DNA of 64,000 bases from the NCBI RefSeq assembly GCF_041248615.1, contig NZ_CP158426.1. The stretch is one strand, 5' to 3'. Position 1 is the first letter of the stretch; each line of letters begins with the position of its first letter. Position numbers: made by a program. The stretch comes from Escherichia coli (GTDB lineage Bacteria > Pseudomonadota > Gammaproteobacteria > Enterobacterales > Enterobacteriaceae). Positions 13,901 through 16,900 of this stretch are shown here, piece by piece.

Positions 13901-16900
13901 CTTTGTGATTGGTCCGTTATTTTCTGGCTGATATTTGAGCGTATAACAGTGTTATACAGTGGTATACTGTATGGATATTACTCACTGATATGGTCTTTGC
14001 AATGAGCAAATCTAATCTGATCGCGTTCCGCATCCCATCTGAATTGCAGGATGAGTTTAATCGGTCTGTTCTCGCTTCTGGAGGGGATAAAACCTCCTGG
14101 CTTGTTGATGCGATTCGCATGAAGCTGGGACAGCCGGAAAAGTCTATTGATTCACGAATGCTTGGGCTGGTGGAGCGCATGGAAAAAGCCGCAGCATCGC
14201 TTATTGCCGGAAAGCCGAACATCCCACCAAAGCCATATAACGAAACGGCAGTTATAAAGATCATTGCCGATACCATCCGACAGGGATTTGATAATGGGCG
14301 TGTGATAGCGGAACGGCTCAATGAAGCAGGCTACCAAACAAAAGCTGGTAAAGCGTGGGATAAAGACATTTACAGCGCGTGGAAGCGTCAGGGTAACAAT
14401 ATTAAAAGAATCAATACGCTGCTTCAGTAATTGATCAGTGTATAAATGATATTTATCGCTCAATCGCTCCCTTTCCGCCCTTCAGCTACAGGGTCGTTGT
14501 CGGCGATAACAAAACCTAAGTCCTGAGAGAATCTCTCTCGTGGGAATCCTTTAGCAGGTAAACCCATTGAATCATATCCACATCCGGGAACATTTGGTTT
14601 AGAGTCAATAAGGTCTGCAATTTGCCGAAGCCATGTTGATCCCGGACCAAGTCGTTTAACTAAGTACCAGATAATACAGATCGCGCTAAAAATCCTCTCG
14701 CAACTCTCTGGATGGAGATTAAGTCCGTCAAAGTATTCATTATCCGGTACTGGAACTCGGGGATGCTTTCTATTCCATATTCTGGAATGGTGAGCGCAAC
14801 GATTCCTTATGAGATTAAGGCACTTCAACCATTTTGCAAATGTCTGCTTATTATCAATGCCAAAACGACGTATAATTTTCCCCTGCATATGACCATTAAG
14901 CATCGCATAATATTTAGACATCTGACCAAAATCCCAGGTCTCCACCGCCACCCAAAATGGAATCTCCTTGCCTTGGCTTCGATGCCATTCAATACAGTCA
15001 TCTCTGCTTTCGTCTAATTTTACTTTTTGCTTATACACCCAATGCTCGAAGGCAGATGAGAATTTTGGATTAATGTATTTTGATGACATGTAGGCAAGTG
15101 GATCATTGCGACCAACCTCATGCGCGATGACTGAACGAACATGAATCTCTATTCTTTCGATAGCATCAATCATCAAAAGACGCAGTTTTTTGTCAAAAAG
15201 ATATAGATCGTACGTCTTCTCGAAACTGGTACCAGCAAGAAATCGGTCTGTTCTGTACGAAAGACCTTTATCTGTTGTCGCAATAATTCTTGATGGGTAC
15301 CAAAAACCTGACAATCGATAATATCCAACCTGCGACAGCTTACGTATCGCACGATTTCGATCATTGATAATCATGCCACGTTCAAGTAGCAATCCTAGCA
15401 ATTCGTGATAGTCCTTATGAGGCTTTGCGGCAATCATAGTGGCGAAACAAAAGATAATAAAAGGCCCGACCGTGAAACTCACATGCCTGAAATCGGCGGC
15501 GGAGAAACAGAGGATCGGGCTCGGTTGCCTGTAACTCTATCCGAAGTTATCCACATGTCAATGCACAGTTACTTAGGAAACTAACATAGATACTATCATC
15601 ACTCACGAAAAACCACTATATGTGGTTTTTATTCATATTGTTATCCACTACAGGCTGTGTCAATAACTTTTACCTATTAATTGGGTAATTTCTACATTTT
15701 CCTATGCTGGCTAGTTTCTCTACTGAAAAGTTGGCACTCCTTAATCGCTTTTCGGTTAATACTATCGGTCTTCATATTGCCAGCAGCATACGCCATCCGA
15801 TAATTTCTATGCTACGCGCGCGTACTTGTCGCAAAATATCAGGCAAAGGCCAGATTCAGAACGTCGTGATAACCACCAGCACAACATGAGATGTCATGTA
15901 ACGCGATTTATCACACCAGATACATGTGATTGGTGTACCCGCATAAAACATCGTCATAGCGCGTCCTGTGCGCATATACGCCGATAATCAACACATCACC
16001 ACCACTCTGTCTTATGTAGAGAACAGTTTTATGGTGCTCCCCGCCATCGTGTGCGTACTGGTCGGACGTAGTTGCAAAATTTTTTGCAACTGATACCCCT
16101 CGCGCGCGTACTGGTCACGAAATTGGTGTTTTGCTGTGGCAGTGATATCAGAAAAATCTTCCTGTTTCACATAAAGCGGATATGCGCGTACTGTAACGGC
16201 CCCATCAACTGGGAGCGGATTTGAAATCCCGACCCAAGCTATGTACCAAATGCCATGTCTTGGATATATGATGATTGCCATTCTAAACAACGCTAAAGGG
16301 AGGGTTGGTGTGAATCAATTGAAGCGATTGGTTGTCTCCGGTTTATTATTTGCTTCTTTTGGAGCGAACGCTGAATGCTGGATTATTGGTGATCTGAAAG
16401 GACAAGAAGCCTCAAGTTCAGATGGGTATAACTATAAGTTATCATCTATACCAGATACCTTTCATTTGGTAATAAGTAAAGAGAAGGCGGATCTTATCTT
16501 GGCAAAAGATGGTATAGGTGGAGGTATTGATTATTACCCGCTATCTCCGAATGCCATGATGGGAAGAAGCTATCGAGATGGTCAACTGACGCTTGTCACA
16601 TGGGCAATCTCAAATGACGGAAAAGTGATCCATACACGAACAATTAGTCGATCTGATATAGGCTCATTTACAGGCTCATTTGTCGGCAATGTTAAAGGCA
16701 AGTGTTAATGTTCATAACTATTTGAAAAAAATACTAATTACTATTATAACCAACCATCCATGGCCATCTGTTATTGAGCTTCCTTTTGCGATGCTTGTGC
16801 TGCTGTGGTCAGTGATTGTGTGACCGTACTGATCGCTCTGTCATATGCTGTGCTACCTTTTGGCGTATTTGCCAGACGTAACAAGGCATTTCGTATAACA

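What the first reader, a model, noticed from the sequence alone, without database searches (positions are those of the whole stretch)
13990..14430. Small protein combining a ribbon-helix-helix-like N-terminus with a serine-recombinase-type DNA-binding segment, no catalytic domain
The N-terminus fits an RHH strand-helix-helix pattern and the C-terminus (LNEAGYQTKAGKAWDKDIYSAWKRQ) resembles the DNA-binding segment of large serine-recombinase accessory domains, but there is no resolvase catalytic domain. It is divergent from the Abi gene and next to iteron cluster A, so it could be the iteron-binding regulator or a regulator/antitoxin partner of the Abi gene.
Basis: inference. Interest (0 to 1): 0.45.

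Follow-up and report, generated by a model that had tools for sequence, protein, structure and literature searches.

The report
Self-regulating two-domain DNA-binder in a phage satellite

Summary
The ORF is real. RefSeq lists it as WP_000230712.1, "hypothetical protein". The family alignment puts the start at ATG 14002 (142 aa), not 13990.

It lies in a ~19-kb EcCIMP1-like phage-inducible chromosomal island between dinD and yicC.

The two-domain observation holds.
- The N-terminus is an Arc/Mnt/CopG-type ribbon-helix-helix (RHH).
- The C-terminus (aa 81-142) is a confidently folded helix-turn-helix (HTH). Its closest relatives are the first ~40 positions of the serine-recombinase "Recombinase" domain. 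There is no catalytic domain.

Both functional suggestions fail.
- The gene is convergent with the AbiD-like gene, not divergent.
- It occurs in 360 of 5426 E. coli genomes, and only 72 of those have this Abi. Elsewhere the same slot holds ShosTA, Fic-like and other cargo.
- The GTTGGTTCA iterons follow the primase C-terminal domain, with at least five iteron types, while this protein's HTH stays invariant.
- EcCIMP1 itself has the iterons, lacks this gene, and is still mobilised.

New result: two 10-bp-phased TGT-NNN-AC repeats abut an extended -10 box 56-63 nt before every homologue. They switch sequence together with the RHH beta-strand in 44 of 44 loci.

Best reading: an autorepressed accessory regulator flanking the island's cargo hotspot. 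The HTH target is unknown.

The parts
14002..14430 (+). Coding sequence of the 142-aa RHH-HTH protein. The alternative annotated start at 13990 gives 146 aa.
   Evidence: ORF. RefSeq CDS WP_000230712.1. Family alignment starting at MSKS. Protein-level purifying selection.
14002..14136 (+). N-terminal ribbon-helix-helix domain (aa 1-45). The beta-strand is S-N-L-I-A-F-R.
   Evidence: AF2 secondary structure. CopG, VapB and MazE RHH structures are the best PDB profile hits. hhalign to P22 Mnt. phrog_30270 at E 3e-4. Beta-strand and operator covary.
14143..14205 (+). Central helix (aa 48-68) with conserved R52, L56 and E61. Candidate oligomerisation helix. A Pro-rich linker (aa 69-80) follows.
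   Evidence: AF2 helix 48-68. Residues conserved in distant homologues. The oligomerisation role is inferred by analogy with the C-terminal helix of Mnt.
14242..14427 (+). C-terminal HTH domain (aa 81-142), related to the first subdomain of the serine-recombinase 'Recombinase' domain (PF07508) and to HTH_62 (PF20552).
13941..13957 (+). Candidate operator GTATAACAGTGTTATAC: two TGT-NNN-AC-type repeats 10 bp apart, which also read as a palindrome.
   Evidence: Present at a fixed distance of 56-63 nt before the start codon in all homologous loci. Column identity is 0.87-0.89, against 0.49-0.56 in the flanks. It switches to TGTCTTAC-NN-TGTCTTAC wherever the beta-strand is S-L-S-V-T-F-R, 44 of 44 loci. 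It is the only copy in the window.
13960..13968 (+). Extended -10 promoter element TGGTATACT, directly abutting the operator.
   Evidence: TGnTAnAAT-type element conserved in register in both operator types. The consensus scan did not call it because there is no -35 box. Inference; the transcription start is not mapped.
13767..13887 (.). Iteron cluster A: 3 x GTTGGTTCA at 9-bp spacing, an AT-rich spacer, then 3 inverted copies at 21-bp spacing. This is context, not part of the regulator's own system.
   Evidence: It is an inverted near-copy of cluster B (22056-22166) at the 3' end of the primase gene. The iteron type tracks the primase C-terminus.
14460..15482 (-). AbiD-like (Abi_2) gene, the convergent neighbour. 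It is one allele of the variable cargo slot.
   Evidence: PADLOC AbiD at 7e-58. phrog_2158 at 2e-56. RefSeq 'Abi family protein'. Present in 72 E. coli genomes.
13443..13730 (-). PerC/ANR-family regulator gene, the divergent neighbour.
   Evidence: NCBIfam ANR_neg_reg at 5.5e-6 and phrog_994 at 4e-37. The EcCIMP1_025 homologue represses LEE1 (PMC11773190).

Best explanation
The gene encodes a 142-aa, two-module DNA-binding protein. The family is uncharacterised and confined to integrase-primase phage satellites (EcCIMP1-like PICIs) of Enterobacterales.

Proposed mechanism:
1. The N-terminal Arc/Mnt-type RHH dimerises. Two dimers, probably held together by the central helix, sit on two 10-bp-phased TGT-NNN-AC repeats. 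This step is inferred.
2. Those repeats directly abut the extended -10 box of the gene's own promoter, so binding shuts the promoter off. This is negative autoregulation and keeps a low steady level of protein in the integrated island. It is inferred, with support from covariation.
3. The C-terminal HTH is homologous to the first subdomain of the large-serine-recombinase DNA-binding 'Recombinase' domain. It is the output module. It most likely binds a second nucleic-acid target that is the same in all hosts, or less likely a conserved protein. The target is unknown.

The gene is accessory, not needed for island mobilisation. It forms the conserved left flank of the island's variable cargo and defence slot, which holds AbiD here. 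It is not the iteron reader and not an Abi-specific antitoxin.
For: Gene reality and selection.

RHH fold.

Operator:
- Two repeats lie at a fixed distance of 56-63 nt from the start codon, abutting a conserved TGnTAnAAT element.
- Column identity is 0.87-0.89, against about 0.5 in the flanks.
- 26 of 26 loci with beta-strand S-N/T/Y-L-V/I-A-F-R/H have GTATAAC-NNN-GTTATAC. 18 of 18 loci with S-L/I-S-V-T-F-R have GTCTTAC-NN-GTCTTAC, in the same register.
- Both types occur within the genus Buttiauxella.
- Distant homologues also have ATAAC/GTTAT-type or TGTxxxAC-type repeats upstream.
- There is only one operator copy in the 64-kb window.

C-terminal HTH:
- Domain model pLDDT 96.5.
- Pfam HTH_62 up to 3.8e-5 and Recombinase up to 9.4e-4 in family members.
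- AFDB50 hits are dominated by recombinase-domain proteins.
- The domain carries a net positive charge, read directly from the sequence.

Accessory status and hotspot flank:
- EcCIMP1 lacks the gene yet excises and is transduced.
- The gene is in 360 E. coli genomes, and similarity usually ends at nt 411 of 441.
- The downstream neighbours are variable.
- No homologue was found in 50,697 phage records.
- Distant homologues sit in the same kind of int-AlpA-Ash-primase islands as the lone opposite-strand gene.
Against: - No binding experiment exists.
- The beta-strand/operator association may reflect a single ancestral switch, so the 44 loci are not 44 independent events.
- Pfam does not call an RHH family on this sequence, and the AF2 monomer is only moderately confident in the N-terminal half (pLDDT about 65).
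- A protein that only represses itself has no visible purpose. No second conserved DNA motif was found near the gene apart from the iterons, so the output of the HTH is a guess.
- The HTH could bind a protein rather than DNA.
- The Abi_2 gene recurs as immediate convergent neighbour in four or five genera, which is more than a random cargo might show.
Confidence: 0.6

Rival explanations
1. Regulator or antitoxin partner of the neighbouring AbiD-like gene. The RHH would repress abiD, or the C-terminus would neutralise the Abi protein.
For: - HEPN-type Abi toxins often have small DNA-binding partners (general knowledge).
- In E. coli this Abi allele is always found next to this gene: 72 of 72 genomes.
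- An Abi_2 gene is the immediate convergent neighbour also in Serratia, Raoultella and Providencia.
- A more distant homologue's island also carries an Abi_2 gene.
Against: - The genes are convergent with separate promoters, not an operon.
- 288 of 360 E. coli genomes carrying the gene lack this Abi.
- The same slot holds ImmA/IrrE pairs, ShosTA, Fic-like and other genes.
- There is no operator copy near the abiD promoter.
- The C-terminus is a folded domain that is invariant whatever the cargo.
Confidence: 0.07
2. Iteron-binding protein. The invariant HTH would bind GTTGGTTCA and control replication or copy number of the excised island.
For: - Cluster A lies 115 bp upstream in E. coli.
- The same 9-mer lies upstream of the gene in Klebsiella, Serratia, Pantoea, Rosenbergiella, Mixta and Cedecea.
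- It is the only widely conserved non-coding motif around the gene.
- Both the HTH and this iteron are highly conserved.
Against: - About half of the loci have no GTTGGTTCA within 10 kb, or have it only beside the primase.
- Loci with AGTGTGTCA, TTGGGATAAC, GTCGGTTCA or GGTACAGGT iterons keep the same HTH.
- The iteron type tracks identity of the primase C-terminal 158 aa: 69-83% versus 37-47%. This matches the P4 alpha protein, whose C-terminal domain binds the ori and crr iterons (established knowledge).
- EcCIMP1 has both clusters, lacks the gene, and is mobilised.
Confidence: 0.05
3. Trans-acting factor aimed at another element. The HTH would bind a conserved site or protein of the P22-like helper phage, a competing phage or satellite, or the host. 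The gene would then act as an immunity, interference or helper-manipulation function, and the RHH would only set its dose.
For: - The gene is specific to satellites and absent from phages.
- It is accessory.
- It has an autoregulated stand-alone transcription unit on the strand opposite the AlpA-driven genes.
- Extreme protein-level conservation of the HTH across genera implies an invariant partner outside the variable island.
- It sits beside defence cargo.
Against: - No target has been identified.
- EcCIMP1's superinfection immunity exists without this gene.
- The island already carries a C4/CI-type antisense RNA, a likely immunity factor.
- This model extends the best explanation rather than excluding it.
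Confidence: 0.2

Closest known systems
P22 Mnt and Arc (RHH immunity-I repressors of P22-like phages)
   Same: - N-terminal RHH whose beta-strand would read DNA.
- Short operator made of two half-sites about 10 bp apart, overlapping a promoter.
- Like Mnt, a helical segment follows the RHH and could join two dimers.
- hhalign aligns the family to Mnt in register at E 8e-5.
- The helper phage of the related island EcCIMP1 is P22-like.
   Different: - Different operator sequence.
- An extra folded HTH domain at the C-terminus that Arc and Mnt lack.
- Not next to an ant gene.
- Encoded by a satellite, with no homologue in phage records.
- The Mnt sequence used for the comparison was recalled from memory.
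Large serine recombinases (for example Bxb1, phiC31 and A118 integrases): 'Recombinase' domain PF07508, and HTH_62 PF20552
   Different: - No resolvase catalytic domain.
- The rest of the Recombinase domain, the zinc-ribbon domain and the coiled coil are all missing.
- E-values on this sequence alone are only 0.07-0.12.
- It cannot be a recombinase.
RHH type II antitoxins and CopG-family autorepressors (VapB, MazE6, ParD, CopG)
   Same: RHH at the N-terminus. Best PDB profile hits are 6xrw_B, 7ak7_C, VapB26 and MazE6. Autoregulation through an operator at the gene's own promoter.
   Different: No co-transcribed toxin gene. The C-terminus is a stable, invariant HTH domain rather than a disordered toxin-binding tail. 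The neighbour genes vary.
EcCIMP1-like PICIs (Pick, Stadel & Raivio 2025, PMC11773190)
   Same: - The host island shares 9.9 of 19.4 kb at 96-99% nucleotide identity with EcCIMP1.
- Same int, AlpA, Ant and Ash genes, TOPRIM/DUF927 primase, P22-like ejection genes, PerC layout and iteron clusters.
   Different: Different integrase and attachment site (dinD-yicC). Different cargo. EcCIMP1 carries alpA_1 where this island carries the RHH-HTH gene and abiD.

Membership tests
Ribbon-helix-helix (Arc/MetJ/CopG) superfamily | N-terminal beta-strand followed by two helices of about 12 residues with a short turn, about 45 aa in all | tested here: met
   AF2 gives an extended segment, then helices 13-25 and 30-42. 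The profile hits CopG-family structure 6xrw_B over positions 2-46 at E 0.028. hhalign to Mnt gives E 8e-5. Pfam itself gives no RHH call.
Ribbon-helix-helix (Arc/MetJ/CopG) superfamily | Binds repeated half-sites through the paired beta-strands of a dimer | tested here: inconclusive
   Indirect only. The two upstream repeats change with the beta-strand residues in 44 of 44 loci. Dimerisation and binding cannot be tested with these tools.
Large serine recombinase | N-terminal resolvase catalytic domain (PF00239) with the nucleophilic serine | tested here: not met
   No Pfam hit. The N-terminus is an RHH, and the protein is only 142 aa.
Large serine recombinase | Complete Recombinase domain plus zinc-ribbon domain and coiled coil | tested here: not met
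   Only model positions 3-42 of 102 are matched. The protein ends about 20 aa later.
Type II toxin-antitoxin antitoxin (partner of Abi) | Co-transcribed with, and strictly co-occurring with, its toxin gene | tested here: not met
   Convergent orientation. Only 72 of 360 E. coli genomes pair it with this Abi. Cargo varies in other genera.
Iteron-binding replication protein | Protein specificity determinant covaries with the iteron sequence, and iterons do not occur without the protein | tested here: not met
   The HTH is invariant across five iteron types. EcCIMP1 has the iterons without the gene.
EcCIMP1-like PICI (host element) | Integrase, AlpA, primase with adjacent ori iterons, PerC, no capsid or lysis genes, about 20 kb, flanked by host genes | tested here: met
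   Annotation and PHROG hits. 96-99% identity to EcCIMP1 over 9.9 kb. Induction by a helper phage was not testable here.

The most novel reading that the evidence does not exclude
The protein would be a satellite-encoded switch. Its invariant recombinase-type HTH would dock on a conserved helper-phage or host component.

On helper infection this docking would pull the RHH off its operator. The derepressed extended -10 promoter, with no terminator before the convergent cargo, would then fire antisense transcription into abiD or whatever defence gene fills the slot. That would silence the island's own abortive-infection cargo just when the satellite needs its helper to replicate.

More broadly, RHH + recombinase-HTH proteins would be a new class of cargo-slot governors in phage satellites.
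Probability: 0.08. Interest if true: 0.6.

Novelty: new variant of a known kind. Interest (0 to 1): 0.3.

Why it matters
It corrects two tempting misreadings, Abi antitoxin and iteron binder.

It also defines an uncharacterised, satellite-specific regulator family whose operator can be predicted and whose specificity switch can be tested directly. Three beta-strand residues change together with three bases per repeat, which gives a compact model for RHH-DNA recognition.

The gene marks the conserved border of a defence and cargo slot in EcCIMP1-like PICIs (AbiD, ShosTA and others), so it is a useful anchor for mining satellite-borne defence genes.

The nearly invariant recombinase-type HTH points to an unknown conserved target. 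Finding it could reveal how these satellites talk to helpers or hosts. As it stands this is a modest, incremental finding.

Tried and rejected
- **NCBIfam.** No meaningful hit for this protein.
- **Sequence search of the PDB.** The full-length profile and the C-terminal profile gave nothing significant, and no serine recombinase.
- **Second conserved DNA motif.** I searched about 38 loci, 10 kb on each side, for a motif that could be the HTH target. Only the iteron emerged, and it is absent from about half of the loci.
- **Extra operator copies in the window.** None found with up to 3 mismatches. This rejects the idea that the protein is the island's master repressor acting at several promoters. 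The C4/CI-type RNA and AlpA fit that role better.
- **Nucleotide-level constraint** (cis site, RNA structure or overlapping gene) as the cause of C-terminal conservation. Rejected, because synonymous-codon identity is flat along the gene.
- **Integrase arm-type sites** as an explanation for cluster A. Rejected, because an inverted copy sits at the 3' end of the primase gene in mid-island.
- **Literature search** for RHH genes in PICIs. Nothing relevant found.
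Full report
**1. What is at the coordinates**

An ORF lies at 13990-14430 on the + strand, 146 aa. RefSeq annotates it in E. coli NRZ14408 as WP_000230712.1, "hypothetical protein".

It has 370 homologues at E<=1e-3, all from Enterobacterales, with 62-79% identity between genera. In a library of 1.84 billion cluster representatives only 83 clusters match, and most are fragments. The family is therefore narrow.

All homologues begin MSKS..., and the upstream ATG is not kept in frame elsewhere. ATG 14002 (142 aa) is therefore the likely start.

Amino-acid identity across 41 loci is 0.5-0.7 over most of the protein and 0.83-0.93 over aa 101-130. 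Identity of synonymous codons is flat at 0.42-0.56. The C-terminal conservation is therefore selection on the protein, not on a DNA or RNA element.

**2. Genomic setting**

The window is E. coli chromosome. The gene lies in a ~19-kb island between dinD and yicC. The island contains:
- a tyrosine integrase and an AlpA-like HTH;
- Ant and Ash-like regulators;
- a TOPRIM/DUF927 primase-helicase;
- homologues of P22 gp14, gp7, gp20 and gp16 ejection proteins;
- an AbiD-like gene, the target gene, and a PerC/ANR gene.

The island shares 9.9 of 19.4 kb at 96-99% identity with EcCIMP1. EcCIMP1 is a PICI shown experimentally to be excised and transduced by the P22-like phage Kapi1 (PMC11773190).

The target gene is convergent with abiD, with 29 bp between the stop codons. 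It is divergent from PerC.

**3. The two domains**

N-terminus:
- AF2 gives an extended segment, helices 13-25 and 30-42, then a long helix 48-68. Confidence is moderate (pLDDT about 65), as expected for an obligate dimer modelled as a monomer.
- A profile of the N-terminal 48 aa finds CopG-family RHH structures first (6xrw_B, E 0.028, positions 2-46; 7ak7_C), then the RHH antitoxins VapB26 and MazE6.
- It aligns in register to P22 Mnt at E 8e-5. The Mnt sequence was recalled from memory.
- phrog_30270 matches aa 5-49 at E 3e-4.

C-terminus:
- Modelled alone, aa 76-142 fold with pLDDT 96.5 into four helices: 81-93, 99-109, 121-129 and 133-141.
- Pfam HTH_62 ("recombinase-like HTH") and Recombinase PF07508 (model positions 3-42 of 102) score E 0.07-0.12 on this sequence alone. 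In distant family members they reach 3.8e-5 and 9.4e-4, and 9 of 11 members hit Recombinase at E<=0.1.
- NCBI names some small relatives "recombinase family protein".
- In Foldseek against AFDB50, after the protein's own family, most of the remaining listed hits are "Recombinase domain-containing" proteins, with probability about 1 and E 0.04-0.3.
- No catalytic domain is present.

The recombinase link is modest in statistical terms.

Distant full-length homologues (27-44% identity) keep the same architecture: RHH, helix, variable linker, HTH.

**4. The RHH has its own operator (new result)**

Every homologue has, 56-63 nt before its start codon, two repeats 10 bp apart. The repeats directly abut an extended -10 element (TGnTAnAAT).

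Column identity is 0.87-0.89 across repeats plus -10, against 0.49-0.56 in the flanks.

Two versions exist, in the same register:
- cTGTATAAC-NNN-GTTATAC, found wherever the beta-strand is S-N-L-V/I-A-F-R (26 of 26 loci, including one STLVAFR and one SYLIAFH variant);
- cTGTCTTAC-NN-TGTCTTAC, found wherever it is S-L/I-S-V-T-F-R (18 of 18 loci).

Both versions occur in the genus Buttiauxella, so the pairing travels with the gene and not with the host. More distant homologues also have GATAAC-NNN-GTTATC-type or TGTxxxAC-type repeats upstream.

In the window the operator is 13941-13957 and the -10 element is 13960-13968. No other copy exists in the 64 kb, even allowing three mismatches.

The simplest reading is an Arc/Mnt-like dimer-of-dimers repressing its own promoter. 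The association may stem from one ancestral switch, so it is consistent with RHH-operator recognition but not statistically independent proof of it.

**5. The iterons belong to the primase, not to this protein**

GTTGGTTCA forms cluster A (13767-13887) and an inverted near-copy, cluster B (22056-22166), just 3' of the primase gene. This resembles the two iteron regions ori and crr of P4, which are bound by the C-terminal domain of the alpha primase (established knowledge).

Across the loci compared:
- The iterons lie upstream of the gene in some loci, only beside the primase in others (L027, L034, L041, L043), or are absent within 10 kb.
- Other islands carry AGTGTGTCA (L036, L047), TTGGGATAAC (L048, and L019 upstream of the gene), GTCGGTTCA (L018) or GGTACAGGT (L003, with a DUF5906 primase). 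The architecture is the same in each case.
- The iteron type follows identity of the primase C-terminal 158 aa: 69-83% for GTTGGTTCA, 79% for the one-base variant, and 46-47% and 37% for the others. The rest of the primase does not discriminate between them.
- The HTH of the target protein is the same throughout.

EcCIMP1 has both clusters and no copy of this gene, yet it is mobilised. The iteron-binding idea is therefore not supported.

**6. Not an Abi partner, but the flank of a cargo slot**

The gene is in 360 of 5426 complete E. coli genomes. In most of them nucleotide similarity stops at nt 411 of 441, where different downstream DNA begins.

Only 72 of these genomes have this abiD allele, although all 72 abiD copies sit next to the gene.

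The same slot holds other cargo elsewhere:
- an ImmA/IrrE pair or small hypothetical proteins in other E. coli;
- ShosTA in Pantoea;
- Fic-like, Sel1-repeat, lipoprotein and other genes in other genera.

Abi_2 recurs as convergent neighbour in Serratia, Raoultella and Providencia. I read this as a common cargo allele. A looser functional link cannot be excluded.

No phage record carries the gene. Distant homologues sit in the same type of int-AlpA-Ash-primase island as the lone opposite-strand gene.

**7. Mechanism and confidence**

- Shown by computation: the gene is real, has two domains, has a conserved repeat-plus-promoter unit covarying with the beta-strand, is independent of iteron type and of Abi, and is dispensable in a functional relative.
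- Inferred: autorepression; tetramerisation through helix 48-68; DNA binding by the HTH.
- Unknown: the target of the HTH.

Its near-invariance across genera, with no conserved nearby motif other than the unrelated iterons, suggests a target outside the variable island, such as helper phage, host or RNA polymerase.

I put 0.6 on the overall statement, 0.2 on a trans-acting role as the real output, 0.07 on the Abi model and 0.05 on the iteron model.

**8. Novelty**

RHH autorepressors are well known, and the host island family has been described. The fusion of an RHH to a stand-alone recombinase-type HTH is, as far as the held literature shows, undescribed. So are its restriction to satellites and its role as the conserved flank of a defence slot. 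I rate it a new variant of a known kind, of modest interest.

Noticed in passing
window 13767-13887 and 22056-22166; L036 11643-11949; L047 17798-18104; L018 18422-18676; L048 15441-15688; L003 15160-15260 and 16268-16372: The island's replication origin seems to be a pair of iteron clusters: 3 copies at 9-bp spacing, an AT-rich spacer, then 3 inverted copies at 21-bp spacing. In E. coli the clusters are split 8 kb apart, like P4 ori and crr. In Morganella, Erwinia and Proteus they are adjacent. At least five iteron sequences exist, and each tracks the C-terminal 158 aa of the primase.
   Followed up: yes
L003 (E. coli 2016C-3878) 8787-8898 versus 15160-16372: Mosaic island. It keeps the GTTGGTTCA cluster A next to PerC and the RHH gene, but its primase is a DUF5906 type with GGTACAGGT iterons. 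Cluster A is therefore orphaned there, a relic or a site for cross-talk.
   Followed up: partly
window 27370-27457 (-) and 27482-27558 (-): Rfam finds a C4 antisense RNA (80 bits) and isrK (63 bits) inside the region annotated as an 'ash family protein' ORF. This suggests P1/P4-style RNA-based immunity in this PICI family.
   Followed up: no
window 16771-21429 (-): The satellite carries its own homologues of the P22 gp14, gp7, gp20 and gp16 ejection proteins (phrog_651, 598, 917, 770). These are variable between islands. This is unusual cargo for a PICI and is presumably packaged into helper capsids.
   Followed up: partly
window 14431-16770; L039 10411-11950; L022 10683-11800; L002 9461-10324: The slot right after the RHH gene is a cargo and defence hotspot. 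It holds AbiD here, ShosTA in Pantoea agglomerans, a Fic-like gene in Rosenbergiella, and an ImmA/IrrE pair in E. coli UPEC129. The recombination junction lies inside the last ~10 codons of the RHH gene.
   Followed up: partly
window 13035-13046 and 32048-32059: A 12-bp direct repeat, ATTATGTACACC, lies between dinD and PerC and again between int and yicC. It may be the att core delimiting a ~19.0-kb island. About 0.02 such matches are expected by chance in the two stretches searched.
   Followed up: no
window 13443-13730 (-): The PerC/ANR-family gene partly matches the EcCIMP1 PerC region at 90% nucleotide identity. That protein was reported to repress LEE1 rather than activate it (PMC11773190). 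In other genera the PerC homologue sits near the primase and ori rather than next to the RHH gene.
   Followed up: partly
L001 32765-33028 (window 26464-26727, -): RefSeq names an 87-aa island ORF 'nicotinic acetylcholine receptor subunit beta'. This is an evident annotation artefact; the ORF has no PHROG match.
   Followed up: no
L057 (Moellerella plasmid pW18-2-d, 8.7 kb): A record deposited as a plasmid carries an integrase, a DUF5906 primase and a distant RHH-HTH homologue. It looks like a small satellite captured in circular form.
   Followed up: no
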